Below are positions 1-41,707 of a DNA stretch of 64,000 nt, one piece after another (position 1 is the first letter of the stretch; each line of letters starts with the position of its first letter). The notes under the pieces were generated by a model. It worked only from the letters and a program-made list of their open reading frames with translations, ran no database searches and was not told the origin of the DNA. The stretch lies in the NCBI GenBank assembly GCA_965277715.1, contig OZ255836.1, positions 160,001-224,000 of the forward strand, written 5' to 3'. This DNA comes from Gammaproteobacteria bacterium (GTDB lineage: Bacteria; Pseudomonadota; Gammaproteobacteria; JBCCGL01). Both the position numbers and the translations under genes were made by a program.

Positions 1-1
1 C

Positions 2-529
2 ATGCCTAGTTTCTTTGATAGTCTGATCAAAGCGCTGGAGATCACGGTTTTGATTATGTTCCTGGTTGCCGCATCGAACTTCTTTGGCGCCGAATTCAGT
101 GCCTTGGGCACGCCAAAGATGATGACTGAGTTGCTACTTGGCCTCGATATGTCGCCTTACTTGATACTGTTATTGGTCATGGCATTGATCTTCCTGCTCG
201 GATGGCCACTGGAGTGGGTGCCTATTGTTCTGATCGTTGTGCCAATTTTGCTACCGACGGTCGAGGCGTTGGAAGTCCATGGACTGGGTCGCTACGACCT
301 AATGGTCTGGTTTGGCATTCTGGTCGCGGTGAACCTGCAGACCGCATGGCTATCTCCACCTGTGGCTTTGTCAGCTTACTTCCTGAAGGGTGTTGTGCCG
401 GATTGGGATCTCAAGGACATCTATCTAGGCATGATGCAGTTCATGGTGATTCAACTCGTCGGTCTCATCCTGCTGTTTTCCTTTCCACAACTGGTGCTTT
501 GGCTACCCAAAGTAATGTCTGGTGGGTAA
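2..529 (+). CDS. TRAP transporter large permease (DctM-like), C-terminal part, 5' end outside window
   Basis: Hydrophobic protein with 'WFGILVAVNLQTAWLSPPVALSAYFLKGV', the typical DctM C-terminal motif. Confidence 0.9.
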   Translation: MPSFFDSLIKALEITVLIMFLVAASNFFGAEFSALGTPKMMTELLLGLDMSPYLILLLVMALIFLLGWPLEWVPIVLIVVPILLPTVEALEVHGLGRYDLMVWFGILVAVNLQTAWLSPPVALSAYFLKGVVPDWDLKDIYLGMMQFMVIQLVGLILLFSFPQLVLWLPKVMSGG

Positions 530-612
530 ATCATAGTGCATCTCCTTCGGTTTACCTTGTCCTGGGTAAGCACCCGACATGATGATATATATCCTGGCAA
601 AGGCCGGGATGT

Positions 613-870
613 ATGAAACGCGAACGCGGCTCCTCGATCGATCGGTGCTCGATATTCTCGACACCGTCACCGCATCGACGAAGCCGCTTAGCGCAACCGA
701 TATCAACGAGGCGCTGAACCTGCCCAAGGTAACCACGCATCGGTTTTGAGCCAAGCTCGAAGCGCGGAGATACTTGCTCAAGAGAGTCGATAGTAAAAGT
801 TATCAGGTCGGCAATCGCCTTTTTGCTGTTGCTGTTGGAGTCCTGGCCAGTTCTCGTTCGACAACCAGGA
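613..870 (+). pseudogene. IclR-family regulator remnant (HTH only)
   Basis: Manual translation MKRERGSSIDR/VLDILDTVTASTKPLSATDINEALNLPKVTTHRF*AKLEARRYLLKRVDSKSYQVGNRLF; one frameshift, one in-frame stop, effector domain missing. Confidence 0.75.
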
Positions 871-1108
871 ACTTTATGATGATGTTGTCGCCATCGCGGT
901 ACTTATCAAGGACAAGCGAGGCAGATATTATAGTTCGCTCGCGATCCAGGCTCCGGCGTCGCGTCTCTCCATCAATTATAGTGAACGTTACCTGCCATTG
1001 TTGTGTGAGGCTGCTAACGAATTAGCGATGCTGGCCGAAGACGAGGAACAGGGAAAAATCCAGGCAAGCCTGGCTGATCCATATGAAAAAAGCAAAGAAA
1101 GCAAGAAA

Positions 1109-1732
1109 GACAGGCACTATATAAAAAATATAAAAACAACTTGAAAATAAAAATAGTATCGAGAGTATCCGAGTCTGGATTTTTTACCTATCTTGGAGGG
1201 TATTCAGTGTAATTATCCAATCATTGAGTCTTGTTTTAGCAAGAAATATTTTTTTCAGGAAAATGAAAACAGCCGATTTGAATCGGTTGAGAAAATCCAG
1301 AGAGTTGAAACAGTGGAACGGCTGAATGGCTATCCCGTATCAGCAGCAATGATCTTATTAGCCAACGCCTTCCAATAACGCGATTCAAAGTATTGGGTGT
1401 TGTTTAGCCAGTTTTCTCTGCCAATGTTGAGCCGTTGTAATATTGGTGGTAGATCTTGAGAAATGTAGCCCCGCTTGTCTTGTCGAATAGCTTTACCCGT
1501 CCAGTCAACCAAATTCAAACTATTGGTGATGGTATTCATAATCGCGTTGAGTGAGCAGATCCAGCCCGCAGAGAAAGGTGCGCCGTACACAGCGTGATAC
1601 GATGTGGTAGTAGGGGGTGTCTGATAGTGAGGTTTGGTCTTTGCGGGGCGGGTCATGATCAGTTCCTTTAACGCTGGCTGGGTTCCATCCTAAAAGAGAG
1701 TAAGGCTATCTGTTAATTATTCGATGCCTGTC
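1109..1732 (-). mobile_element. Internally deleted RAYT-like (Y1 HUH) transposase remnant with short terminal inverted repeats
   Basis: Frameshift-corrected N-terminus [31 protein letters not shown] joined to C-terminal LVDWTGKAIRQDKRGYI...PILQRLNI; GACAGGCA (1109-1116) and TGCCTGTC (1725-1732) are inverted. Confidence 0.7.
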
Positions 1733-1813
1733 CTAGTAGCTATACTACCGGTAGTATACTCAAAAACCTGATATAGAGTTTAACCTCTAGCTCATTTAAA
1801 GTACTATCAGGCC

Positions 1814-2677
1814 ATGCAAACGGGCATCGAACATTTACCTGCGGAAAAACAAACTGAGTTAAAACAGCTTGCTACTATCGTTCGTCGGCATACCGACGAT
1901 GTAGAGATGATCATATTGTTTGGTTCTTATGCTCGCGGGGAATACAAAGAAGAAAAAGATTTAAAGCCAGATCGTAAATCGGGCCATGCCTCTGATTATG
2001 ATATTTTAGTAGTCACTAAAAACCGAGATACCGTTGATAACAGTGAATTATGGAAAACCATTAATGATGATTGCTATGCCCAACAGTTTAGTGCTGTGCC
2101 ACGTTTCATTGTACATGACATCCAACAATTAAATACTAAACTGGCTCAAGCACATTATTTTTATACAGAAGCAACTGAAGAGGGTTGTTTCCTTTATAAT
2201 TCTGAGCAGTTTACTTTAGCAAAAAAATGTGAGTTGTTACCAGAAGAGCGTAAGCGCTTAGCTCAAGAGCATTATGATTCTTGTTTCAATAGCGCAGTTG
2301 ATTTTTTTGAGGGTTATGAATTTTATTTAAACAAAGCCAAATTTTCCAAAGCGGCTTTTCTACTTAATCAATCCACTGAATCTGCGTACAAAACAATTTT
2401 ACTTGTCTTTACCAATTACGCTCCTCATGAGCATTATTTATCATTATTGGGTAATTACGCTGTAGATGAGCATAAGTTGTTTGCTGATATTTTTCCATTA
2501 GATACTAAAGCGCAGCGAGATAGGTTTAATTTATTGGATTATGCTTATATCGGTGCCAGATATGACCCGGCATTTAAGGTTGGAAAAGGCGATTTAGAGT
2601 TGTTAGCTGAATGTGTCAAAAAGCTCATAGAACTGGCAAAGAAAATATGTGAAGAGAAAATTCAAAGTTTTGCATAA
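1814..2677 (+). CDS. Fused minimal nucleotidyltransferase (MNT) + HEPN domain protein
   Basis: ILFGSYARG...SDYDILVV NTase motif; HEPN-like AAFLLNQSTESAYK...AYIGARY. Confidence 0.88.
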   Translation: MQTGIEHLPAEKQTELKQLATIVRRHTDDVEMIILFGSYARGEYKEEKDLKPDRKSGHASDYDILVVTKNRDTVDNSELWKTINDDCYAQQFSAVPRFIVHDIQQLNTKLAQAHYFYTEATEEGCFLYNSEQFTLAKKCELLPEERKRLAQEHYDSCFNSAVDFFEGYEFYLNKAKFSKAAFLLNQSTESAYKTILLVFTNYAPHEHYLSLLGNYAVDEHKLFADIFPLDTKAQRDRFNLLDYAYIGARYDPAFKVGKGDLELLAECVKKLIELAKKICEEKIQSFA

Positions 2678-2691
2678 TAGTTTAGCAACAA

Positions 2692-2739
2692 ATTTAACAA
2701 AGCATTCCAGCGGGTTAACCGCTGAATGCGACGTTAGCA
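2692..2739 (+). repeat. Short (48 bp) attC-like integron recombination site
   Basis: ATTTAAC-N5-ATTCCAGC-GGGTTAACC-GCTGAAT-N5-GTTAGCA: R'', L'' with an extra base, L', R'. Confidence 0.65.
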
Positions 2740-2744
2740 ACTAA

Positions 2745-2978
2745 GCTGTGATTTGAAGGGAATCGTCGCTTGGTTATACTCAAAAAAGCGTGGGTGGGAA
2801 AGTTTCGCTGCTGTGATTTGAAGGGAATCGTCGCTTGGTTATACTGGAATATGCTGAACCAAGAGAGGGTGTGGGGCTGTGATTTGAAGGGAATCGTCGC
2901 TTGGTTATACTAAGTTTAGATGATTTAAAGTCTGCTCATCAAGCTGTGATTTGAAGGGAATCGTCGCTTGGTTATACT
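2745..2978 (+). CRISPR. Type II-C CRISPR array, 4 identical 36-bp repeats, 3 spacers (29, 30, 31 bp)
   Basis: GCTGTGATTTGAAGGGAATCGTCGCTTGGTTATACT at 2745, 2810, 2876, 2943; next to cas2; strand inferred from tracrRNA complementarity. Confidence 0.97.
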
Positions 2979-3026
2979 ACCTGTTCTGTAAGTGGTTGAA
3001 TCGACAATAGAAAAGTATTCAATCGC

Positions 3027-3356
3027 TTAGAACATTTCGATCTGCGAGGGCGCCTTTTCCGGCGCCCCTCGGCTTTTTCCATGAAAAATTTCCATCTTGC
3101 CATACTGTACATCTGTTAAACTCATTACCCTTACTTCACCATCTGGTGGTAAGGCTTGTTTGATGCGCTTACGGTGAACCATGGCTTTTTCTTCCCCCGG
3201 GCAGTATCTGGCGTACACGGAATACTGCAGCATACTAAAACCGTTTTTCAGTAATTGTTTGCGAAAATCTGTATACGCCCGGCGGGCTTTCGGCGTATCC
3301 GTCGGGAGATCAAATAATGCGATGAGCCACACGGCCTGATAAGGCGAAATCGCCAT
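3027..3356 (-). CDS. cas2: CRISPR-associated endonuclease Cas2
   Basis: WLIALFDLPT...FRKQLLKNGFSMLQYSVYAR, type II Cas2 signature. Confidence 0.97.
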   Translation of the reverse strand: MAISPYQAVWLIALFDLPTDTPKARRAYTDFRKQLLKNGFSMLQYSVYARYCPGEEKAMVHRKRIKQALPPDGEVRVMSLTDVQYGKMEIFHGKSRGAPEKAPSQIEMF

Positions 3357-4247
3357 CTATACCGTTGGCAGCATAAGCGTTTTCCTTTCGCCCAGCATAA
3401 CCTGCGCCAATGACTGAGCGGACTTTTGAATAGCCCCCTGTAAAGTAAGTTGCTCTTCGTTTACGGTAACTTTGTAACTTATCAGCTCCAATAGCTGGCG
3501 TCTCAATTCCTGATCCAGCTCGGCGTTAGCGTCACACGCTTGTATCAACTGCCAGACATGCAAATCCACATAAGGCCGGTAAGGTTCCATTACATCGTCT
3601 GATAGGCAATAGGCGTTGTAGCGGTTGTGATGATGTATACCCAACGACGGGTGTAGCCCCGCAGCACACAAGGAGCGACTGACCAAAGCGCGCAAGATAG
3701 CGTAGCCATAATTGAGAAAGCGGTTTTGATCCGGTGCGTCTCTATCTCTTTTAAAACCTTCGCCCTTAAACAGGCGGCTCCAATAGCGACGGGCCGCCTG
3801 AGCCTCGATATTGGCAGGGTCGCCGGAACGCACCTTTTTTACCAACACTGACAAACCAGCGTCATTTCCCGTAAGGTCTTGCAAAACGCGGCCTTGAAAG
3901 CGGATTTTGGCCTGAATCAGTTGCTTCCATAGTGCCTTTTTCACGGGTTTCTGCAGTTCCACTTGTGCGGCAAAGCGTTCGGTTTGTAAGGTATTACTGT
4001 CCAGCGGCATAAACAGGCCAATAGGGTGATGGCTCTGGTTACTGCTGATCACCATCACATTTGCCTGTACCAGCTCACTCAAACAATATTGAGTAATCAG
4101 TGTTTGCGGATGGTCGATAATCACCGCAGAGAGGTCTTCTATGGGCACGGAGCCAATCTGTTGCTTATCGCGTTCGATAATCAGTTGCTGATGGCGGTAG
4201 CTGAGATAGCAGCCTTCTGTGCCGATTTCGATAATCCGCTTACTCAT
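3357..4247 (-). CDS. cas1: Type II CRISPR-associated endonuclease Cas1
   Basis: NIEAQAARRYW, LNYGYAILR, LGIHHHN..NAYCLSDDVMEPYRP. Confidence 0.97.
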   Translation of the reverse strand: MSKRIIEIGTEGCYLSYRHQQLIIERDKQQIGSVPIEDLSAVIIDHPQTLITQYCLSELVQANVMVISSNQSHHPIGLFMPLDSNTLQTERFAAQVELQKPVKKALWKQLIQAKIRFQGRVLQDLTGNDAGLSVLVKKVRSGDPANIEAQAARRYWSRLFKGEGFKRDRDAPDQNRFLNYGYAILRALVSRSLCAAGLHPSLGIHHHNRYNAYCLSDDVMEPYRPYVDLHVWQLIQACDANAELDQELRRQLLELISYKVTVNEEQLTLQGAIQKSAQSLAQVMLGERKTLMLPTV

Positions 4248-7200
4248 GGGGGGTGGCCACTTTTCCTAGCGGGCTTATCGTTAACAGTCTTGCTCCAGAC
4301 TGCCTGAGTGTTTCAGGGGTTTTATAAATAAATTTCTGCGAATCCTGACTTGCATCCGTATGAGTACGTAATGCGATAAGACCGTTTTGATCAAATTTCT
4401 GCACCCGGCAAATTAAAGCCTGGCCTTGATGGTTTAGTGAGAATACATCTTCTTTGTGTACAGTCATAACAAAGCGCTCATCTTTGCCATGTTGGATTGT
4501 TACCACGGGCTGACCGTGCCGTTTACGAGTGGCTGCTTCCAGCATGTTCACCACTTCGCCACGCCATTTAAGCCTGCCTTTTACGTCGGTAAATTCAATA
4601 ATCTCAATATGATGATTGTTGCGCGTCCAGACGTTACGTTGATGCCTGATGCTTTCATCATTGCTGCCAATAGTGGCGATAGTGCGTTGATAAACCAACC
4701 GGACTTTTTTGATGGGGCGAGTTACACGGCCCTGTTTATCCCGAAAACCGAAAGGATTTTCGGGGTTGGCGAAAGCGTCTTTGAAGTTTTGTGACCTGGC
4801 AAAGTGCTCTAACGCCATTTGCCGGATTTTAGGGTCACGGATATGGTGCAGATCCTTTTGCTTGCTTAATTCCACCAGCGGTTTGCGTATAACAACTTCT
4901 GGCACGCCTTTGGTGTCGGTGTTGCCGGTAAGCCCGTAGAGAAACTCTTTGTGTAATGCGCCTTGCACCTTGCGATTGGTTTTGTGGGAGACCGTGATTT
5001 TCCCCACCGCTTTGGTGGCGTGTTGACGCAGGTCAGTGATAGGTTCCGGGTAGTTTTCTATGCGTAGACCGCGATATGAAAGGGTGTGATAGCGACTGAG
5101 CCGCTGCACTGCTCGCCTATCTGTCAAGGCAACCACTAACGCATCTATAGCATGGTGGCGGTGGTCCTCTCGCGTTTTTTCACCATCATTGCTAAGAATG
5201 CCATTAAGTGCCCAGGCGCGCCTTAAGAGTGCAGTGGTGCCTCCTTTAACCGGTTGTACGTTTACGCCAAGCTGCCCTAAAAAGGTAACGGTTTGCCGCG
5301 CAATATAGCGGGTTTCATTTAACTGCTGGCTGACAAAGTCCACGTCGTCAAGATTTTCCATAGTGAAGCGTTTGCGCTTTGGGTAAGGCAACTTTTTTAC
5401 ACGTGCCAATATTTCACCGTATATCACTTGGTTACCAGAATAGTGTTCATAAGGCGTATGGTTTGCTTTGCGCTCGTTTTCGCCTTTTTCACACAAGGTT
5501 TTGTTCATAAAGCTGTCATCCAGACTGCGAGAATAGGGGATGATGTGTTCGATATCAAAGCGCGGGGAATCACCGAACAGTGCGTCCATGCTAATAGTCT
5601 TACCTGTATAGGGGCACAGGTGTTCGCATTCCTCCCAGAGTTTGTATTTGATGATATCGTTTCGCGTGGGGTTAAGGCCGTATTCGCCTAGTCTTTCCTC
5701 TGCTATTTTATTTTTCTTTTCATTTTCTTTATTGCGCCGGTCATCTTCCGCACGCTGCTTGGCGTTGGCTTTAAGGTCACGCGCCATTTCTACCCGGATA
5801 ATATCGGTTGCCGTAGGTTTTGATAATGGCATTCACTACCTTACGCACCTGATATAAAGCGCGTTCCACCATGGGGTTGCGCAGATCACCGATACACATA
5901 GGGCCGTCAGTCAAGTCATCGGCGTGATTGGCAGAGTTGATTACTGTGCCGTCTTTTTTCTCTTTACGCCGGGCGGCTTTACCGGGAAAAGGCAGTGCAT
6001 CGAAACACTTTTCAGGTTCCGGTTTAGTATGCATATAACCAGCACGCTCGCAGGCTTGGTTGTAGGTGTATCCACGATTCTCTGGAGTGGAAACTTCACT
6101 CAAAAACGACAGAATATCGCGGATCGCCTTGTGTGATAAGTGCATATACCCTTTGGGTAGACGAAGGTTGAGCAGCTTATCAATAGTAGATTCTTCAAAG
6201 CGCCAGTATTTCCGCAGGCGATTTTTGAGGGGCTGTTCTTCGGCGATATTAATCAGGTCGGATACCAAGTCCTCCTTCTGTCGATTCGACAGTGACTGCC
6301 AGGTTTTTTTGGTCAGCGCGCTGGAGAGCATAGCGGCGGTTTGGTTGCCTAGCAGGCCGGATTTGCGCACCCGCTCCAGGTTCAAGTGGCTGGATTTGTC
6401 GGGAAGACTCAGGGCTTTTTTCACCTTTTCCCAGGACATTTGCTTACTGGTGCCAAGTTTGCTGTGCAGAATCAGTCGCTCTTTGTCGGTGAGAAAACGT
6501 TCTTTACCATCGGCAAAAATAACCTTTAGGTTGTTCAGGTTTTGCCACAACCTAAATTCCTGAGCAGCCAGGGTTGCCGCTGCCGCTCGTTTACGTTGAG
6601 TAAACTCACAACTGCCTATCAGATGCTTTTGTATTTTTAATGGCCGCTGGTCAAAAATTGCCGCCCTTATACGCTTACGTGATGTTGGGGTCATGGCCTT
6701 GGGGTGATGTGTCTCCTGTGCCAGCCAAATCTCATCAAACTCCTTTTCATACATGCGTCGGGCGGTATAGTTGCCACGGATACGGGTTTTATGCGGGTCG
6801 AGTGAATAGAAATACTCGCCGAGGCTACGGTAGCGACCCTCTCGCATCGCTGTATCTATTTCACCGATGCCGCTACTGACTGCGCCGTCTTCTTTGTCAT
6901 TGCCCACTTTCCGATTGGAAAGATAGCCACGCCGCTGGCCCAGATGGTATAAAGCTCTGCCCAGGTGGTAAGCGGATAACGGTTTGTCCAGCGCCTGAGC
7001 GCGTAAGGCGTAGGGATCAAGCTGAAACACTTCTGCCAACTCGACAGGTTTTTTAGGTAACAGGCGACTGTCTTGCAGAGCATGTAACAGCTTCTGCTTG
7101 CGGCGCACCCGGCGATAACCCTGCCGCCTTAGCGAACGCGCCTCACGGCGCTCCTGGTTCAGTGATTTTTCGCCATTACTGCGGTCCACCCCTTCAGGGA

Positions 7201-7309
7201 AGATACGCACGCCCATATCGACTATGGACTGCGGTGTGGGGTCAACGTCAATCAGGCACCAACCAACTGAGCTGGTACCAAGGTCGAGGCCGAGAATGGT
7301 TTTTTTCAT
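4240..7309 (-). pseudogene. cas9: Type II-C Cas9 (~1020 aa if repaired), split into two ORFs by one frameshift at ~5806-5809
   Basis: RuvC-I ILGLDLGTSSVGW, bridge helix and REC in 5777-7309; RuvC-II IIRVEMARD, HNH DIEHIIPYS...N...N and RuvC-III HHAIDA in 4240-5832; no csn2 or cas4. Confidence 0.93.
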
Positions 7310-7328
7310 TCCTGTACTCCTTATGTAA

Positions 7329-7409
7329 GTTTATTAGGTTTAGTGTTGCAGTTTTTGTAGGAATAGAAAAATTGCTTTGTCGTTTATTAGATTTTAGTGC
7401 AGTTTTTGT
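7329..7409. repeat. Pair of imperfect ~29-bp direct repeats upstream of cas9
   Basis: GTTTATTAGGTTTAGTGTTGCAGTTTTTGT (7329-7358) and GTTTATTAGATTTTAGTGCAGTTTTTGT (7382-7409). Confidence 0.7.
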
Positions 7410-8836
7410 TTTCGTGTGATTTTACTCAAGGTTGCCCGATTTCACAGTTACTAATTTTTGTTATGAAAATAGCTGTAAATGCCCTTGAATAGTCTGGCTA
7501 TGATGTGCTTTTCAGTTTGTTTTCCCCTGGAATCGCTAATGTTTAGGCTGATGTCTGTTCCCGGTGGCGCACTCACTGCTATTCTGATGGGTTCATCATT
7601 TGCTTTAGAGGGGATTATTTCTTTGTTCATAGAAAAACATCAGTGTTTCAAAATTCCTGGCTGTCGAGGTTTTAAATGCCTCACTAAGCTATGCATAATA
7701 GTTCTAAGGGACTTTCTTGTCATTATTGCATTTTGCAGAGAGCGGATGGTGAATGAGCATATACGGGTAATTCTAGCGTAAAAAAACAATGGATTAACAA
7801 AGCCGCCTTTTTTCTGGGCAATTTGTTGTCTCTTATCAAGCATTTTAGTGTATTTTTTATCAGATGGATGAATACATTCCAGGTTCTTTGTTTTTGATGT
7901 TTCTTCAAAAATACGCATGATATTATAGGCCATGGCAGTAAAACGCATTTGACTGTTCAGCGCATTCAGGTTTGAAGACCAGGCTTTTCTTTCGGTGAAA
8001 TCACTTTTACTATTGTTGAATGATTTTTCTATCGTCCAACGCTTGTAATAGAGCATAGCAATAGTGCCTTGGTTAATTGACTCTGGTAGCGTTGAAATAA
8101 ATTGATGTAATTGACCTGTTTCTGGGTCGCGGTATTTAACAATATGAAATTGGACCTTTTTATTTTTATATACACTATAGCCTTCAACCCCTGTATTAAT
8201 TTCACTACCCTGGTCATAGGGTATAGAGTTGACAAAAGTTGCAACTGCATTTTCTTTGAGTACTGAAATCATAAAATTCTGATGCTGTTTTTGCTTTTCC
8301 CACCATGCATAATCAGTCACCGCCTTATCGTATATATAGAGGTGCTTTTGCCAAGTCTCTTTTTCGCCACAACGTTGTTCAATATAAGAACGTAACGCGG
8401 GTATTTCCTGGTGCCGTTCAGTACCGTTAGTCACGACACAAAGTGGTCTTAGAAGTCCATTTCTGAGGTTCAAGGCATGAATAAAGCCTGCTGCGAAGAC
8501 GTTGCCCTGACGATTTTTCTCTGTGTGACAAGCATGCTGTATAAAATGACCATCAGCTGCTTCTACTCGATATTCTTCAAGTTCAGGAAATTGTTTTAAA
8601 TAATCAATGTCCAAAGAAGATAATTTCTCACTTTGCAGTTGATAGCTTTGCTTTTCCATGGCTTCCATCATCTTCATCCGTCTTGTCGACTTTAATGCGT
8701 TAAAATAGCTTGAATGACAAATTGTCTCGTCGTATATTTCATCCGTAACCTGTAGATAGTCCCCCTGTGTCAGGGTAGTTGTCCCCCTCCCTAAATTGGG
8801 ATTCAATAAGTTATTACAGGAGGCAAAGAGAGAGAT

Positions 8837-9331
8837 ATGGGTTATCCAATAGAAAGAAAGGCCGCTGTTTTAAAGAAGATGCTGCCGCCGAACAATCAGA
8901 CAATTTCCCGGTTAGCCAAAGAAGAAGGCATTGCACAAGGTACGCTTTATAGTTGGCGAGCCCAAGCAAGAGCGAAAGGCGAACTCATGCCAGATGGCGA
9001 TTTGACACCAGCAGGTTGGGGTTCTTCGGATAAGTTTGCAGCGGTACTGGAAAGTGCGTCATTAAGCGAAACAGACCTTTCAGCTTATTGCCGTCATCGT
9101 GGTTTGTACCCTGATCAGATTAAGGCGTGGCGAATGGCTTGTGAACAAGCCAATGACTGGGATCGCGCCCAAACGAAGCGTTTACAAACCAGTCGTAGAG
9201 AAGCGGATAGACGTATTAAACGTCTCGAACAAGAACTGCACCGAAAGGAGAAAGCGTTAGCCGAAACAGCCGCTTTGCTGGTGCTTAGAAAAAAGGCCCA
9301 AGCGATCTGGGGGGAGGTAGAGGACGAATGA
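8837..9331 (+). CDS. IS3 transposase OrfA
   Basis: HTH plus coiled coil ending ALAETAALLVLRKK; A6G slippery site at 9289-9295. Confidence 0.9.
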   Translation: MGYPIERKAAVLKKMLPPNNQTISRLAKEEGIAQGTLYSWRAQARAKGELMPDGDLTPAGWGSSDKFAAVLESASLSETDLSAYCRHRGLYPDQIKAWRMACEQANDWDRAQTKRLQTSRREADRRIKRLEQELHRKEKALAETAALLVLRKKAQAIWGEVEDE

Positions 9332-10407
9332 CCTGCCATTCAGATCGCCAAAATAGTATCCGTTTAATCAAAGAGGCCGTTGTCGCTGGCGCTACATTAA
9401 GCAAAGCTTGCAAAGTGCTTGAATTACACCCTAAGACGTACCGACGCTGGGCAAACGCGGGTACTGTCCGCGCTGATGGCAGACCCAGCGCTCATCGACA
9501 GGCGCCTGGTAATAAGTTCACAGCAGAAGAGCGGGCATTGATCGTCACCACTTGTAATGAAGCGAAATACCAAGCGCTACCCCCCTCGCAAATTGTGCCC
9601 AAATTGGCGGATGAAGGTGTGTATATTGGATCAGAGTCAAGCTTCTATCGGGTGTTAAAGTCGGAAAACCAACTGCAGCGGCGAGGTAAGGCGGCGGCGC
9701 CTAAAAAACGGCACAAACCTAACAGCTACCTGGCATCAAGGCCAAACGAGGTGTGGTCTTGGGATATTACCTTTTTGAAATCGAACATAACCGGGTGGTT
9801 TTACCGGCTTTATATGATGATGGATATTTACAGTCGTAAAATTGTTGCCTGGGAAGTACATGACAGTGAATCGGCTGATCTGGCAGCGGCGCTGATCCAG
9901 CGTGCCTGTTTAGCGGAGGGATGCAGCCAGAGTCAATTGGTATTACACGCGGATAATGGTGGCCCGATGAAAGGTGCTACCATGTTAGCAAAACTGCAAT
10001 GGTTGGGTGTGATACCTTCGTTTAGCAGGCCATCGGTAAGCGATGATAACCCTTATTCAGAAAGCCTGTTTAGAACCTTAAAATACACGCCTGCCTATCC
10101 GTCAAAGCCATTTGATAGTTTAGCCTCTGCCCGAAACTGGGTGCATGGATTTGTGCAATGGTACAACGACTCTCATTGCCATAGCGGCATTGGGTTTGTG
10201 ACACCAACCTCACGTCATAAAGGCGAAGACCACGCGATACTGGCAGCCAGAAAAGCAGTTTATGAACAAGCAAAGGCCAAACACCCTGAACGCTGGAGTC
10301 AGGATATTAAACACCTCGAACCGGTATCGGGGGTGTGGTTAAACCCGGAAAAGGAAGGCTTGGTTATGAGACAAAAGCACAATGGAATTGAAGAGCAAGT
10401 AGCATAG
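9328..10407 (+). CDS. IS3 transposase OrfB (integrase core)
   Basis: WSWDIT, LHADNG, DNPYSESLFRTLKY DDE triad. Confidence 0.92.
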   Translation: MTCHSDRQNSIRLIKEAVVAGATLSKACKVLELHPKTYRRWANAGTVRADGRPSAHRQAPGNKFTAEERALIVTTCNEAKYQALPPSQIVPKLADEGVYIGSESSFYRVLKSENQLQRRGKAAAPKKRHKPNSYLASRPNEVWSWDITFLKSNITGWFYRLYMMMDIYSRKIVAWEVHDSESADLAAALIQRACLAEGCSQSQLVLHADNGGPMKGATMLAKLQWLGVIPSFSRPSVSDDNPYSESLFRTLKYTPAYPSKPFDSLASARNWVHGFVQWYNDSHCHSGIGFVTPTSRHKGEDHAILAARKAVYEQAKAKHPERWSQDIKHLEPVSGVWLNPEKEGLVMRQKHNGIEEQVA

Positions 10408-10884
10408 TAAAACGGACAACTACCTTGACAAACACCGTAGTGACGACCACTATGTACAAGACTTATACAGCGAAGTAACCCATGGCGAGAAAAAGCTACG
10501 TCATCAATGGCATCGCATGATCTTTTCCATAAAGGGAAGCGTTCAGCAGCAATTGCTTTTTCCATACTTATTTTACAGTGTTCGGTGATATATTCTTCAA
10601 CGGTCATCATTTCGTTCATATTCAATTTGCCCATTTAATCAGATATTAAATGGGTATTTTAAAAAAAATTCTGCTGGTGAATGCAAGTGTTTTTTTGGAT
10701 AATTTTATTTATTTTATGAATTATAAAGCGTGTTATCGGTTTATAAAAAAACAGTACAAATATTATAAAAAATACTATTTGTAGCTTATGGCGGCTCTTT
10801 TCAGGTGTTATTCATTGCGTTATTAGCTTCCTGGTAGGATTCTAGTGGTACACCCATGTAGAAAAATGGAATATTCTTGACGTG

Positions 10885-10920
10885 GCCGTGATTAGGCGAA
10901 AACCGTCTCTTGGATATATT
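10885..10920 (+). repeat. Degenerate solitary CRISPR repeat upstream of the tracrRNA
   Basis: GCCGTGATTAGGCGAAAACCGTCTCTTGGATATATT, 26/36 ungapped identity to the array repeat. Confidence 0.8.
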
Positions 10921-10923
10921 GAG

Positions 10924-10951
10924 TTGAAAACATCGTGTAAATTGCTACACT
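10924..10951 (+). promoter_or_regulatory. Putative sigma70 promoter of the tracrRNA
   Basis: TTGAAA-16 bp-TACACT with extended -10 TG, 7 nt before the anti-repeat. Confidence 0.65.
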
Positions 10952-10958
10952 TATAACC

Positions 10959-11089
10959 AGTATAACCAAGCGACGGTTTCCTACTTATCACAGTAAGACA
11001 GATTCTGTCGTGGGCTCTGCACGTTAGTGCAACCCGCCAGTGCCGAGGCACAACCAGTAGAGAACCCCATCTGATCAATGGGGTTTTTT
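10959..11089 (+). ncRNA. tracrRNA
   Basis: Anti-repeat 10959-10994 matches the repeat reverse complement 30/36 (3 of 6 differences are G-U compatible), then GACAG-ATT-CTGTC hairpin, two more hairpins and terminator AACCCCAT...ATGGGGTT-T tract. Confidence 0.9.
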
Positions 11090-11149
11090 ATTTTCTGATG
11101 CCGATAAAATTATTATTTAGGCTTGATATCAAAAGCGTGCTTGTTGTAC

Positions 11150-11410
11150 GCATCAGCTCTCTATCGACCTCACTCGGTGCGACTGTCCTGCAACTTCGCC
11201 GCGTGCATGGAAAACGCCCGAAACTCGAAGGTACGCGCCTATCGATGCGGTCTTCGCGTGGCGATAGGCCAGTGTCGCGGCGGAATAAACGCTCCAATTG
11301 ATGCTGTGATCGGTTAACGCAGCGGCGACGGTGGGGATGGGTAAGAGGGTGTTCCAAATGGCGCTTCATTATCACAATAGCTTTGCGCCAACTATCGGAG
11401 ATAGGTACTT
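11150..11410 (-). pseudogene. GlxA/AraC-family regulator C-terminal HTH fragment
   Basis: IMKRHLEHPL...NRSQHQLERLFRRDTGLSP with frameshifts; boundaries approximate. Confidence 0.55.
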
Positions 11411-11424
11411 TCTACTCTTTCTAC

Positions 11425-11784
11425 GTAAGCGCCAATATATGGGCGTACTACCCGTTTGACAGTTGGGTTCGGATAATAAAAGCCTTATCCATTGAAGGCA
11501 CCTATGAATTCATCAATAATGCCATTTAATCAATCGTCCAGTAAGCAAGTTTTTTGGCAGAAACATCTTCAAGACCAGCGTGAATCAGGCCTAAGTCAGC
11601 ACAGTTATTGCCAAGCTCACAACCTGAAAGCCCATCAATTTTCGTATTGGAAGAAGGCGAATTATTTAATGAAGCCGAGGCATTAAGTGAAACGGATGGG
11701 GGGATAACGGCGTTTGATGAGTTACAAGGTAATACAACATCGACAAAACGTAAAGATCGCAAAGAACTTGAAATGGGCGCTTAC
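11425..11784 (+). mobile_element. Internally deleted IS66 element (360 bp)
   Basis: IRs GTAAGCGCCAATAT / AAATGGGCGCTTAC; TnpA N-terminus (WQKHL..Q.ESGLSQ..YC..H.L...QFSYWKK) plus TnpC-like fragment GELFNEAE; no target duplication. Confidence 0.8.
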
Positions 11785-11879
11785 ATTTATGGTGGCCAGG
11801 TTAATAGATTTAGGTCGCCCACAAAATCTCCACAAATTTCCCAGATAATTCTTCATCTGAATTTCGTAGGTATCACTAA

Positions 11880-13058
11880 ATGAATAGAAGAGATTTCACC
11901 CGCATGTGCGCCATTTTGGGAATAGGAGCACCCATTATTGGTTGCGGTAGTTCGCCTAGCACTACTAATACACCCAGCACGCAAAGCTTTAACACCAACG
12001 CTGGGCCTGTGTTGATTATTGGTGCTGGCGCCGCAGGCATGTCTGCCGGTTATTTACTTGGGCAGCGCGGTATTGAGTATCAAATTCTAGAGGCCAGCTC
12101 AGTGGTGGGTGGTCGTATGCGCGTAAATGAATCCTTTACTGATTTTCCTATTCCATTAGGAGGCGAATGGATTCATAGTCAAGTTAGCATTCTGGAAGAG
12201 GCTGTTAATAACAGTAGTGTTTCTATTACTACACAAACTCAAGGCTATTCGCCTAGTGATATGGGTGGTGTGTGGAATGGTAGCAGTTTTGAAACCTATA
12301 CCATTGGTGCCTATAGTGATCTGAAGTTTGTCGGCTCGTCCTGGTTTAACTTTTTTGAAGAGTACATATTGCCCACTGTGCAAAACAATATTTTGTTTGA
12401 TTCGGTCGTATCCAATATCAATTACTCTGGCAATTCGGTCACCGTCACCACCGCTGCTGGTCCTATATATACAGGCTCCCGTGTGATTGTTGCTGTACCA
12501 CTTAAAATTTTGCAGGAAGGCGATATTACTTTCACCCCCGCCTTGCCTGCTAACAAAACCAACGCCATTTCACAGACGCTGGTATGGCCAGGTTTAAAAG
12601 CGTTCTTTGAATTCTCTGGCGAGTTCTATCCAACCTTTATCAGTTTTACTGATACTGATGGAAGCAATGGTGAGCGTATTTATTACGATGCTGCCTATGC
12701 ACAAACCTCTGATAGAAACATATTGGGTTTTTTTACGGTAGGTACTGCTGCCGACCCCTACATCAATATGACAGCTGATGAGTTGCGAGATAACTTGTTG
12801 GCAGAGCTAGATACTATTTTTGACGGTGCAGCCAGTGCTAACTTCGTGCAGTTTTTACACCAGAACTGGCAACAGCAACCCTATGCTCAAGCTGCCTATG
12901 TGCAAGATTTTGAAGGTTCAGGTCGAATGACTACATTGGGGCAACCGGTGAATAACATAATGTATTTTGCTGGCGATGCTTATTTTGATGGCAGTGATTG
13001 GTCTAGTGTTCATGTGGCGGTAAGATCCGCCCGACGCGCAGTAGACGCTTTCACCTGA
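11880..13058 (+). CDS. Flavin monoamine oxidase-family lipoprotein with Tat signal
   Basis: MNRRDF...IIGC; IIGAGAAG FAD motif; GGRM; YFAGDA. Confidence 0.85.
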   Translation: MNRRDFTRMCAILGIGAPIIGCGSSPSTTNTPSTQSFNTNAGPVLIIGAGAAGMSAGYLLGQRGIEYQILEASSVVGGRMRVNESFTDFPIPLGGEWIHSQVSILEEAVNNSSVSITTQTQGYSPSDMGGVWNGSSFETYTIGAYSDLKFVGSSWFNFFEEYILPTVQNNILFDSVVSNINYSGNSVTVTTAAGPIYTGSRVIVAVPLKILQEGDITFTPALPANKTNAISQTLVWPGLKAFFEFSGEFYPTFISFTDTDGSNGERIYYDAAYAQTSDRNILGFFTVGTAADPYINMTADELRDNLLAELDTIFDGAASANFVQFLHQNWQQQPYAQAAYVQDFEGSGRMTTLGQPVNNIMYFAGDAYFDGSDWSSVHVAVRSARRAVDAFT

Positions 13059-13377
13059 GTTAAACCGGTTTAGGCGGCATGAAAAAATGACCCAAAAACG
13101 CGTATTGATGATTTATAAAACCTGCTCTCTTACCCGCAGTGTTAGCAATGTCAATTGCATCTGGTCTCTGGGTATACCGATCAACTCCCCGCTCCGCTTT
13201 GTAGCACCTCTGTTAGCCTATCATGGAATCAGTGATGGATTATTCATAGAAAGTGGTGTAGCTTTGTTCATAGCGTACTCACGTTGAGATAGTTGTTGAT
13301 AAGTAAATTTCAACAAAGTACGTTATTTTTTTTATTATCATTCACCCGATTCGAATATAGCTCAAGCACTTCACTAC

Positions 13378-14094
13378 ATGTCTTCGCTTGAAAACTCTCT
13401 ACTATCCAACAAAGTCGCCTTGATCGTTGAAGACGATCCCGACATTCTTCGTATACTTCGACAGTATACCAAGCAGGTAGGCATGCGTGTGCATAGTGCA
13501 GGTGACGGCGAAATGGCACTGAAAATTCACCACATGGCCAAGCCGGATATCATTTTGCTGGATATCGGCATACCCAAATTGGATGGTTTTGAAGTGCTGA
13601 AAGTAATCAATCAGAACACCAAGACGCCCACTATTGTTATTAGCGCTCGTGTCGAAGACGAAGACAAGCTGCTTGGCCTGGGTTTAGGTGCCGATGACTA
13701 TGTTGTAAAGCCGTTTAACCCGCAAGAAGTTATGGCGCGCATAGAAGCGGTCTTGAGAAGAACAGAACCCAAAAATAAACCCAAACTATTAAGATTTGGG
13801 GATTTGTGCGTTGATTTAAATACGGGTGAAGCCTCAGTGGAAAAGGACTCAGGTATGCAAGCTATCAATTTAACACCCAGTGAGTTCCTGTTGTTGACCA
13901 AGTTAATGGCAGCGCCCAATAAAACACATAGTCGATTAGAGCTGATTGAAACTTGCTTTCTTGACAGCGATGCGCTGGTCAGAACCATTGATAGCCACTT
14001 AAGCCATCTACGCAAAAAGCTGTCTGTTGCTGGAGCTGGCAATTGCCTAACCGTGGTGCGCGGTCTGGGTTATCGGCTGCAAGGCGTGGAATAG
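13378..14094 (+). CDS. OmpR-family response regulator (AdeR/BaeR-like)
   Basis: LIVEDD, ILLDI, GADDYVVKPF, RTIDSHLSHLRKKL, VRGLGY. Confidence 0.92.
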   Translation: MSSLENSLLSNKVALIVEDDPDILRILRQYTKQVGMRVHSAGDGEMALKIHHMAKPDIILLDIGIPKLDGFEVLKVINQNTKTPTIVISARVEDEDKLLGLGLGADDYVVKPFNPQEVMARIEAVLRRTEPKNKPKLLRFGDLCVDLNTGEASVEKDSGMQAINLTPSEFLLLTKLMAAPNKTHSRLELIETCFLDSDALVRTIDSHLSHLRKKLSVAGAGNCLTVVRGLGYRLQGVE

Positions 14095-40734: not shown

Positions 40735-41707
40735 AGGAGCCATTGTCACCAGCCACGCCAATTGAGTGAAGAAGAACGTTCTGTGGTATTGAATACGCTC
40801 AATAATTGGGAATTCTATGATCAACCACCAGCACAGGTCTACCACACCCTGCTCAGTCGCTGTATTTATCTCTGCTCCATCAGCACCCTGCACCGACTGC
40901 TGCGCCAGTCCGATCAGTCAGGGGAACGCCGAAGACAGCGCCCTGGGCAAGCCAACGCGGTGCCAAGGCTTTCAGCCAGCCAACCTAATGAGGTCTGGAC
41001 GTGGGACATTACAAAACTCGCCACCGTTGAGTGCGGTGTTTACTTATCGCTTTATGTAGTGATGGATTGATTCAGTCGCTATATTGTGGCTTGGATGCTT
41101 TCTCATAAAGAAAACAGCGCACTGGCACAGCCGCTCATTCAAGAGGCCAATACACGTTACGCGATTAGACCCGGCCAGTTGACGCGGCATCAAGATCGCG
41201 GGACTCCGATGACAGCACATTGCTACCTGGACTTATTGGTCGAGTTGGCAGTCACTGCAAGCCACAGCAGACCCCGCGTGAGTAATGATAACCCTCACAG
41301 TGAAAGCCAATTCTGAACACTGAAGTATCAGCCTGACTACCTGCGTCGCTTTGACCATTATCGCCATGCTAACAGGTGGTGCACTGAGTATGTCGATTGG
41401 TACAACCATCAGCACTGCCACAGTGCCTTAGAGGGCTTCACGCCTTGTCAGGTATTGACTGCACAGCACCTGTCTCTCGGTCAAGTTTGTCAACAGGCGC
41501 TGGATAAAAAGTATGCCCAACATCCAGAGCGATTCGTACATCAGCGGCCTCTTGTCAGGATGCCGCCTGCGAAGATCTACATTAACCCCGTACACGATGA
41601 ACTGGGGAATATAGAACACGATGCGCACGTCAACTTTCCAACTCTAAATCGAGCTAAATCTATGCTAACTTGAATAACTATGGCTTGAAACAGGTTGACA
41701 CCTTCCG
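40735..41707 (+). mobile_element. IS3-family orfB remnant with stops, right end only
   Basis: WTWDITKL, HQDRG, SRPRVSNDNPHSESQF*; ends ...TTGACA-CCTTCCG. Confidence 0.85.

What the first reader, a model, noticed from the sequence alone, without database searches (positions are those of the whole stretch)
10867..11089. Degenerate CRISPR repeat upstream of the tracrRNA: candidate natural single-guide or scaRNA-like regulator in a II-C system
Seen: 10885-10920 matches the array repeat 26/36 and the tracr anti-repeat 27/36 (plus 2 G-U). At positions 10, 16 and 19 it agrees with the tracr where the array repeat does not. It is in crRNA orientation 38 nt before the anti-repeat, so one transcript could fold as guide-repeat-loop-antirepeat-nexus-terminator. 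After removing the IS, a weaker repeat-like stretch (7597-7632, 19/36, tentative) lies 23 nt upstream, framing the pseudo-spacer AAAAATGGAATATTCTTGACGTG. Known: S. pyogenes tracr-L and F. novicida scaRNA use short guides to make Cas9 repress promoters. Inference: an analogous Cas9-guided regulatory module, now disrupted. I found no convincing target in this window.
Basis: partly seen in the sequence, partly recalled or inferred. Interest (0 to 1): 0.85.

Follow-up and report, generated by a model that had tools for sequence, protein, structure and literature searches.

The report
Decayed CRISPR repeat beside a tracrRNA
A worn copy of the CRISPR repeat sits just upstream of the tracrRNA gene of a decaying type II-C Cas9 system and could fold into a natural single-guide RNA, but it has no detectable target, promoter or conservation, so it is most likely a leftover rather than a working regulator.

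Summary
Window 10885-10920 matches the 36-nt array repeat at 26/36 and the complement of the tracrRNA anti-repeat (10959-10994) at 27/36 plus 2 G-U. The next best unrelated match in the 64 kb is 22/36. RNA 10862-11092 folds with the copy paired to the anti-repeat (-84.6 kcal/mol, z -6.5). The tracrRNA's own promoter (10924-10951) lies in the loop, which is the layout of a long-form tracrRNA (tracr-L).

The functional reading failed every test I could run:
- The 12-nt pseudo-guide has no match with 3 or fewer mismatches in the cas9-tracr intergenic DNA.
- It has no 9-nt or longer match anywhere in the window.
- No promoter-like site lies upstream of the copy, with or without the IS.
- The only closer relative I could read (L003, Cas9 54%) has a homologous tracrRNA but no such copy. 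None of 45 other II-C loci has a comparable full-length partner.

This strain's system is decaying. An IS4-family element carrying a nested IS3 element sits 22 nt upstream of the copy, and cas9 has a 2-nt frameshift. Contigs of two other runs lack both lesions.

A 2026 preprint already reports tracr-L in II-C systems. Verdict: most likely a vestigial solo repeat. A working tracr-L or scaRNA-like regulator is not excluded (about 0.25).

The parts
2745..2978 (+). CRISPR array: 4 identical 36-nt repeats (starts 2745, 2810, 2876, 2943) and 3 spacers of 29-31 nt. The + strand is the crRNA sense, antisense to the cas genes. Each repeat holds a promoter-like site TTGAAG-N16-TATACT.
3027..3356 (-). 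cas2
   Evidence: PF09827, E 2.8e-16
3357..4247 (-). cas1
   Evidence: PF01867, E 2.2e-30
4240..7309 (-). cas9, type II-C size, split into 510-aa and 530-aa frames by a frameshift at about 5807. Contigs of runs X4 and X5 carry 2 more nt there, which restores the family motif YGKPDIIRVEMA. X1 and X3 carry the broken form.
   Evidence: (table 4)
7391..7420 (-). Best promoter-like site for cas9 (ATCACA-N18-TAAAAT, 9/12). A consensus match only.
7638..10858 (.). IS4-family element (DDE transposase in two pieces, 10634-10299 and 8806-7640, minus strand), interrupted by a nested IS3-family element (about 8757-10437, orfA/orfB on +). It is flanked by the direct repeat TAGAAAAA (7630-7637 and 10859-10866). 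It is absent from contigs of X4 and X5.
   Evidence: tables 2, 5, 7
10862..10884 (+). Pseudo-spacer or pseudo-guide directly 5' of the degenerate repeat. No target was found.
10885..10920 (+). Degenerate full-length copy of the CRISPR repeat in crRNA sense: 26/36 to the repeat and 29/36 pairs with the anti-repeat. It retains a weak relic of the repeat's promoter (TAGGCG-N16-TATATT, 8/12).
10924..10951 (+). tracrRNA promoter TTGAAA-N16-TACACT (9/12, TG before the second hexamer), ending 7 nt before the anti-repeat. The same arrangement occurs in L003 (TTGAAA-N16-TATACT).
10959..10994 (+). tracrRNA anti-repeat (30 Watson-Crick plus 3 G-U of 36 with the array repeat; duplex -52.2 kcal/mol)
10995..11089 (+). 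tracrRNA tail: nexus, two hairpins and a terminal hairpin followed by a T run. It is conserved with L003, with 5 compensatory pairs.

Best explanation
10885-10920 is a solo, decayed, full-length copy of the system's own CRISPR repeat. It lies in crRNA orientation 38 nt upstream of the tracrRNA anti-repeat, with the tracrRNA's own promoter in between. It has the architecture of a long-form tracrRNA (tracr-L), but here it is most likely a vestige and not an active Cas9 regulator. It could be left over from a repeat recruitment or recombination event at the tracr locus, or from a former guide-repeat module.

The working tracrRNA starts at about 10958, from the 10924-10951 promoter, and does not contain the copy.

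Shown: the homology, the pairing potential, the promoter position, the lack of a target, the lack of an upstream promoter-like site, the absence from L003, and the decay of the locus in this strain.

Inferred: that no RNA begins upstream, and that the copy is therefore functionless.
For: 1. The copy is real but worn. It has 10 of 36 substitutions, which is more than the 7 of 36 separating the functional repeats of the window and L003.
2. Its duplex with the anti-repeat is -31.2 kcal/mol, against -52.2 for the array repeat.
3. Homology stops at the repeat borders. The flanks are unrelated to the array flanks or spacers, with scores at the shuffle median.
4. The 12 nt next to the copy have no match with 3 or fewer mismatches in 7200-7640 or 10855-11100 other than themselves. 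They have no 9-nt or longer match anywhere in 64 kb. There is one 8-mer, at 41626(-); by my arithmetic about 2 are expected by chance.
5. Between the 49 nt upstream of the copy (IS-less order) and 7200-7605, the only shared word of 8 nt or more is a single 8-mer, with 0.5 expected.
6. A relaxed promoter scan over the IS-less junction (7540-7632 plus 10863-10959) finds only the relic inside the copy and the tracr promoter. The + strand site 7441-7470 loses its second hexamer in the intact-cas9 contigs, where 10 nt are left out at 7464.
7. L003 (Cas9 54% identical) shares the repeat (29/36), the tracr promoter, nexus and hairpins, but has no sense copy upstream: best 14/36 identity, 21 pairs.
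8. Of 45 other II-C loci with an array and a clear anti-repeat, none has 25 or more of 36 pairs upstream. The maximum is 24, and the maximum identity to the repeat is 21. The window has 29 and 26.
9. Three of the six -35 positions of the repeat's embedded promoter are changed.
Against: 1. The position and orientation are exactly what a natural single guide needs, which would be a coincidence for a random relic.
2. The guide-proximal nine positions are 8/9 identical to the repeat, and 9 of the first 11 positions still pair, the same number as in the native duplex.
3. Substitutions cluster at positions 10-16, where the native duplex is also partly unpaired. Five of the 10 lie in those 7 positions. 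This is my own post hoc count.
4. Three changes (16, 19, 35) keep pairing and one (10) gains a pair. By my arithmetic this is not significant (about P 0.1 for 3 or more kept).
5. The copy is still alignable in the IS-less, intact-cas9 contigs. X4 record 16 covers 10863-11600 with 15 differences.
6. Only one closer relative could be read, no whole genome is held, and no RNA data were available. A distant target or an upstream start therefore cannot be excluded.
Confidence: 0.5

Rival explanations
1. It is a working, or until the IS insertion working, natural single guide of the tracr-L or scaRNA kind. A long transcript carries a short guide, the repeat-like arm, the loop and the tracrRNA. It loads into Cas9 and represses a promoter without cleavage, at cas9 or elsewhere in the genome.
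For: The layout is identical to the tracr-L layout described in passages of the 2026 preprint and of Shmakov 2023. The fold is strong, and the lower stem is as well paired as the native one, 9 of 11. The tracr promoter lies in the loop, as I recall (from no call) for the short-form promoter of S. pyogenes. The preprint states that tracr-L occurs in II-C systems. The IS insertion 22 nt upstream would explain a missing promoter in this strain.
Against: There is no target of 11 of 12 nt, or even 9 of 12, between the tracr and cas9, and no 9-nt or longer seed match in 64 kb. No promoter-like site appears in the IS-less arrangement either. The copy is absent from L003. There are two non-canonical pairs in the first 11 (positions 3 and 9), against the preprint's limit of one.
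Confidence: 0.25
2. It is a cis-acting element of the tracrRNA gene. Either it is a weak second promoter inherited from the repeat's embedded promoter (TAGGCG-N16-TATATT, start near 10927), or it is an 'anti-anti-repeat' that masks the anti-repeat on read-through transcripts coming from upstream and so limits spurious tracrRNA activity.
For: Every array repeat carries TTGAAG-N16-TATACT, and the copy keeps the second hexamer (TATATT) at the same place. The hairpin is predicted with z -6.5. L029, a distant II-C locus, also has a repeat-like stretch 31 nt upstream of its anti-repeat, with a perfect 12-nt complement.
Against: The -35 part is the most damaged part of the copy, at 3 of 6 matches to consensus. 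A stronger promoter sits directly downstream. L003 does without the copy. In L029 the stretch overlaps the ribosome-binding site and start of cas9 on the other strand, so it may be constrained for that reason.
Confidence: 0.15
3. It is a chance resemblance to the repeat.
For: None beyond the fact that short similarities occur. 46 unrelated windows reach 19/36.
Against: 26/36 against a best unrelated 22/36 over both strands of 64 kb. The match is in register over the whole repeat, next to the anti-repeat.
Confidence: 0.01

Closest known systems
tracr-L, the long-form tracrRNA of Streptococcus pyogenes type II-A (Workman et al. 2021; seen only as described in passages of other papers)
   Same: A repeat-like arm in crRNA sense upstream of and co-linear with the anti-repeat. 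A large intervening loop. A short stretch upstream in the place of a guide. cas9 nearby and divergent.
   Different: No 11-nt target in the cas9 promoter region, no upstream promoter-like site and no RNA evidence. Subtype II-C. The arm here is a full 36-nt repeat copy.
tracr-L candidates in type II-C systems reported by bioRxiv 10.64898/2026.06.01.729453 (passages and section 27 read; Table S4 not seen, supplements closed)
   Same: Same subtype and same expected architecture.
   Different: Their definition needs at most 1 bad pair in the first 11 bp and a perfect target of 11 nt or more between tracr-L and cas9. Here there are 2 bad pairs and no target. I could not check whether this Cas9 clade is in their table.
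scaRNA of Francisella novicida type II-B, and the Cas9-regulating scaRNAs of the same preprint
   Same: A degenerate repeat able to pair with the tracrRNA, preceded by a short spacer-like stretch.
   Different: A scaRNA is a separate transcript with a known endogenous target. Here no terminator separates the copy from the tracrRNA in the fold, and no target is known.
[quoted passage not shown]
   Same: A partly degraded repeat outside the array, in an intergenic region of the cas locus. That paper treats such elements without conservation and without a target as probably degraded, non-functional repeats.
   Different: That survey did not separate sense copies next to the tracrRNA in type II. 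It reports mini-arrays distinct from tracrRNA in about 6% of type II loci.
Repeat-embedded crRNA promoters of Neisseria meningitidis type II-C (recalled: Zhang et al. 2013; from no call)
   Same: Each repeat here carries a -35/-10-like pair ending at the repeat's 3' end, and the array is antisense to cas9.
   Different: Not tested by RNA here. This concerns the array rather than the finding itself.

Membership tests
tracr-L (long-form tracrRNA acting as a natural sgRNA) | A repeat-like segment in crRNA sense, upstream of and on the same strand as the anti-repeat, able to fold back on it | tested here: met
   26/36 to the repeat, 27 Watson-Crick plus 2 G-U with the anti-repeat, 38-nt loop; fold z -6.5
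tracr-L (long-form tracrRNA acting as a natural sgRNA) | [quoted passage not shown] | tested here: not met
   Two, at positions 3 (C.A) and 9 (U.U). The native crRNA:tracr duplex also has two, at 9 and 10, so the rule may be too strict for this clade. I counted on an ungapped register, not on their covariance model.
tracr-L (long-form tracrRNA acting as a natural sgRNA) | cas9 within 10 kb | tested here: met
   The cas9 start at 7309 is 3.6 kb away with the IS, and about 345 nt from the copy in the IS-less contigs
tracr-L (long-form tracrRNA acting as a natural sgRNA) | A perfect match of at least 11 of the 12 guide nt between the tracrRNA and the cas9 start codon | tested here: not met
   No match with 3 or fewer mismatches in 7200-7640 or 10855-11100 except the guide's own DNA. 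Only one 8-mer is shared in the IS-less order, with 0.5 expected.
tracr-L (long-form tracrRNA acting as a natural sgRNA) | A transcript that starts upstream of the repeat-like arm | tested here: inconclusive
   No sigma-70-like site upstream in either arrangement. Consensus scans cannot exclude a start, and RNA data could not be obtained.
tracr-L (long-form tracrRNA acting as a natural sgRNA) | Conservation of the arm in related systems | tested here: not met
   Absent in L003 (0 of 1 relative with Cas9 above 50%). 0 of 45 other II-C loci have a full-length partner. Closer relatives (P0001-P0012) could not be read as DNA.
scaRNA-type regulator | A separate small transcript with its own promoter and end, pairing with the tracrRNA in trans | tested here: inconclusive
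   No promoter-like site upstream. No hairpin with a T run between 10921 and 10958 in the fold.
scaRNA-type regulator | A partial match to an endogenous promoter next to a PAM | not testable with these tools
   No whole genome is held and the PAM is unknown. Within the 64 kb there is only one 8-nt seed match (41626, minus strand), at chance level.
Type II-C CRISPR-Cas | cas9-cas1-cas2 with no csn2 or cas4, a compact Cas9, a tracrRNA with anti-repeat | tested here: met
   Pfam hits for Cas9 lobes, HNH, RuvC-III, Cas1 and Cas2. The ORF list shows nothing between or after them. The tracrRNA is confirmed by complementarity, promoter, terminal hairpin and 5 compensatory pairs against L003.
Degenerate solo repeat (standalone repeat-like sequence) | Homology to the array repeat, outside the array, confined to the repeat unit | tested here: met
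   26/36 in register over positions 1-36. The flanks are unrelated to the array flanks and spacers.

The most novel reading that the evidence does not exclude
The copy is a young or target-less tracr-L in a type II-C system. One form of this reading is a stage in the birth of Cas9 autoregulation: a repeat unit captured upstream of the tracrRNA before a guide-target pair evolved, as the 'scaRNA insertion' idea of the 2026 preprint would predict. The other form is a footprint of the recruitment or 'reset' of an anti-repeat from a repeat unit, as proposed by Faure et al. 2018. Under either form, a natural sgRNA would be made in IS-less strains.
Probability: 0.15. Interest if true: 0.6.

Novelty: new member of a known kind. 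Interest (0 to 1): 0.3.

Why it matters
If the copy were active, it would be a worked example of Cas9 self-regulation by a natural single guide in a type II-C system of an uncultured bacterium from runs labelled sponge metagenome. It would come with natural 'knock-outs' in the population, since both IS-disrupted and IS-less alleles exist.

As it stands, it mainly documents how a II-C locus decays: an IS insertion between cas9 and the tracrRNA, plus a 2-nt frameshift in cas9. It also shows that a repeat copy next to a tracrRNA is not by itself evidence of a regulator. A target, a transcription start and conservation have to be shown.

Tried and rejected
- **Rfam.** A scan of 1-14000 at E up to 1 gave only three sub-threshold hits of unrelated families. 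One 'mir-2012' hit simply reflects the hairpin.
- **Genome-contig scan with the Cas9 N-terminal half.** It returned only two distant loci, at 30 and 40% identity.
- **Metagenome-contig scan with a 25-sequence alignment.** It returned 80 loci, but only L003 is above 50%.
- **Viral contigs.** A 16-nt tracr nexus word gave 10 hits, none with tracr-like context. The Cas9 alignment found none.
- **Plasmid collection.** Cas9 relatives there are at most 36% identical. The IS transposase has only distant IS4-family hits.
- **The genome search.** In 401 genomes of one phylum, 17 had a match, the best 10 places at 35-43% identity, and no taxonomy was told. I dropped this route.
- **Sequencing runs.** No RNA holder is listed for 10800-12300, so expression could not be examined. 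The contig lay-out lists only 40 of 119 differences, none of them between 10863 and 11100.
- **Lower-stem-only partner scan.** A 14-nt ungapped scan was uninformative, because many native duplexes are out of register at their 3' end.
- **The tracr promoter as a second decayed repeat.** Rejected. Apart from the two hexamers, I counted by eye only about 14/36 identity in L003, and 10916-10951 is not among the 20/36-or-better hits.
- **7597-7632 as a partner repeat.** Rejected as chance.
- **Terminator scan.** It missed the tracrRNA's evident terminal hairpin, so I rely on the fold.
- **Supplements.** The supplementary tables of the 2026 preprint (Table S4, the tracr-L list) were not opened. They may already list this clade.

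Full report
**The locus.** The window holds a type II-C CRISPR-Cas system on the minus strand: cas9 (7309-4240), cas1 (4247-3357) and cas2 (3356-3027), with no csn2 or cas4. Downstream lies an array of four identical 36-nt repeats at 2745-2978. On the other side of cas9, the + strand carries a tracrRNA gene. It consists of an anti-repeat at 10959-10994, a tail with three hairpins, and a terminal hairpin followed by a T run ending near 11089. The anti-repeat forms 30 Watson-Crick plus 3 G-U pairs of 36 with the repeat.

A promoter-like site TTGAAA-N16-TACACT (10924-10951) ends 7 nt before the anti-repeat. The crRNA sense is therefore the + strand, antisense to the cas genes. Each repeat carries TTGAAG-N16-TATACT ending at its 3' end. 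This resembles the repeat-embedded promoters that I recall from Neisseria II-C systems (recalled, from no call).

The tracrRNA assignment is backed by L003, a metagenome locus whose Cas9 is 54% identical. L003 has a homologous repeat (29/36), the same promoter arrangement, a nearly identical nexus, and 5 compensatory base-pair changes in two tail hairpins.

**The observation.** 10885-10920 matches the repeat at 26/36 in register over the whole unit. It matches the complement of the anti-repeat at 27/36, with two further G-U pairs. Over both strands of the 64 kb, the best unrelated window reaches 22/36.

RNA 10862-11092 folds with the copy paired to the anti-repeat: -84.6 kcal/mol, z -6.5, and 0 of 200 shuffles as stable. 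The bimolecular duplex is -31.2 kcal/mol, against -52.2 for the true repeat. Homology is confined to the repeat unit, because the flanks resemble neither the array's flanks nor its spacers.

**The insertion and the state of the locus.** Contigs of four public runs were laid on 2600-11600. Contigs of X4 and X5, which come from two studies labelled sponge metagenome, join 7632 to 10863 and so skip 3230 nt. A second joint, 8756 to 10438, appears in all four runs. This shows an IS4-family element (7638-10858, flanked by TAGAAAAA on both sides) that itself carries an IS3-family element. Summed contig depth over the IS is roughly 10-20 times that of the flanks (table 2). The tool warns that this is not a copy number.

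The same X4 and X5 contigs carry two extra nucleotides behind 5807. That insertion restores the motif YGKPDIIRVEMA, which is conserved in 24 Cas9 relatives. In the window and in runs X1 and X3, cas9 is therefore frameshifted and the IS is present. In X4 and X5, cas9 is intact and the IS is absent. In the IS-less order, the copy lies about 345 nt from the cas9 start.

52 windows in the 64 kb score as well, 6 of them the real repeat-related ones. I treat it as chance.

**Tests of the regulatory reading.** A 2026 preprint (bioRxiv 10.64898/2026.06.01.729453; passages and section 27 read) defines tracr-L by three conditions:
- at most one bad pair in the first 11 bp of the stem;
- cas9 within 10 kb;
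- a perfect target of 11 nt or more for the 12-nt guide, between the tracr and the cas9 start.

Here the stem has two bad pairs, at positions 3 and 9. The native duplex also has two. cas9 is near. The target is missing.
- The 12 nt have no match with 3 or fewer mismatches in 7200-7640 or 10855-11100 except their own DNA.
- They have no match of 9 nt or more anywhere in the window.
- A search with the 49 upstream nt in IS-less order found one 8-mer, with 0.5 expected.
- The single 8-nt seed match elsewhere (41626, minus strand) extends to only 11 of 20 and is at chance level.

No sigma-70-like site lies upstream of the copy, in the present sequence or across the IS-less junction even with relaxed thresholds. 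The only + strand candidate further upstream (7441-7470) loses its second hexamer in the intact-cas9 contigs, which lack 10 nt at 7464. RNA data could not be obtained for this stretch.

**Conservation.** L003 has no sense repeat copy upstream of its tracrRNA, and its anti-repeat is not paired with upstream sequence in the fold.

I surveyed the 82 fetched Cas9 loci plus the window.
- 57 of the 83 sources have an array of three or more repeats.
- Two of these, with repeats reconstructed shorter than 34 nt, were dropped, leaving 55.
- Nine more lacked an ungapped anti-repeat of 23/36 or better, leaving 46 including the window.

Among the 45 other loci, the best upstream partner within 200 nt has 24 of 36 pairs and at most 21/36 identity to the repeat. 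The window has 29 and 26. With gapped duplex energies against 80 control stretches per locus, the window (z -4.2) and L029 (z -3.8) stand out. The other 44 lie between -1.2 and +3.0.

In L029, the partner overlaps the ribosome-binding site and start codon of cas9 on the other strand, and it has lost the guide-proximal part of the repeat. It is therefore not the same thing. All of these loci except L003 are distant (Cas9 30-40% identical). The 56-64% relatives found as proteins could not be read as DNA.

**Weighing.**
- For a functional natural guide: the exact position and orientation; a lower stem as well paired as the native one; and substitutions concentrated where the native duplex is unpaired anyway. 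That last point is my own post hoc count.
- Against it: no target, no start signal, no conservation, and a worn sequence. The copy has 10 substitutions, more than the 7 that separate the working repeats of the window and L003.
- The three pair-preserving changes are all transitions and are not significantly more than expected (my arithmetic, about P 0.1).

Faure et al. 2018 (PMC6546382; passages read) propose that anti-repeats arise from recruited repeats and may be 'reset' by recombination with a repeat. Such events could leave a repeat copy beside the tracrRNA. Shmakov et al. 2023 (passages read) treat standalone repeats without a target or conservation as probably degraded.

I therefore rate the explanations as follows:
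- a vestigial solo repeat: 0.5;
- an active, or until the IS insertion active, tracr-L or scaRNA-like regulator: 0.25;
- a cis role, as a weak relic promoter or as a mask of the anti-repeat on read-through RNA: 0.15;
- chance: 0.01.

**Novelty.** In the library searches, the 2026 preprint states that tracr-L occurs in type II-C systems. A 2025 Nature paper (PMC12477760; passages read) notes that no tracr-L was seen in Neisseria small-RNA data. A II-C natural guide would thus be a new member of a known kind, not a new kind. Supplementary Table S4 of the preprint, which I could not open, may already cover this clade.

Noticed in passing
window 5800-5812 (cas9): cas9 is frameshifted in the window and in contigs of runs X1 and X3. 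Contigs of X4 and X5 have 2 more nt behind 5807, which restores the conserved YGKPDIIRVEMA motif. The break is therefore a real strain difference rather than an assembly slip.
   Followed up: yes
window 7638-10858: A nested insertion: an IS3-family element (about 8757-10437) sits inside an IS4-family element, flanked by TAGAAAAA direct repeats. Summed contig depth over both is about 10-20 times that of the flanks in all four runs, and many loose ends at the IS ends point to other copies.
   Followed up: partly
window 2745-2978: Every repeat carries a promoter-like TTGAAG-N16-TATACT ending at the repeat's 3' end (4 found against 0.6 expected in shuffles). This suggests that crRNAs are started inside each repeat. 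Many of the other II-C repeats surveyed also end in TACACT or TACAAT.
   Followed up: partly
window 2943 and leftwards: One contig of run X4 diverges from the window before 2943. The strains therefore share the cas2-proximal repeat but not the spacers further out.
   Followed up: no
window 7464-7473: A 10-nt indel between the strains in the cas9 upstream region. It removes the second hexamer of a + strand promoter-like site in the intact-cas9 contigs.
   Followed up: partly
L029 about 4903-5005: A distant II-C locus with a repeat-like stretch 31 nt upstream of the anti-repeat. It includes a perfect 12-nt complement to the anti-repeat's 5' end that differs from the array repeat at 2 positions. 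On the other strand it overlaps the cas9 ribosome-binding site and start codon.
   Followed up: partly
L050 about 4640-4900: A distant II-C locus with the first 15 nt of its repeat (14/15) about 45 nt upstream of the anti-repeat. The 14-nt word just upstream of it recurs as an inverted copy about 80 nt further upstream. This is a possible II-C tracr-L with a target, but the match stops 5 nt short of the repeat.
   Followed up: partly
window 1814-2677: An ORF of 287 aa with an N-terminal nucleotidyltransferase domain and a C-terminal HEPN domain, directly beside the CRISPR array.
   Followed up: no
45 surveyed II-C loci (L001-L082): In 21 of 45 loci, a sigma-70-like site ends 3-11 nt before the anti-repeat. 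This suggests that tracrRNAs of this Cas9 family start at or just before the anti-repeat.
   Followed up: partly
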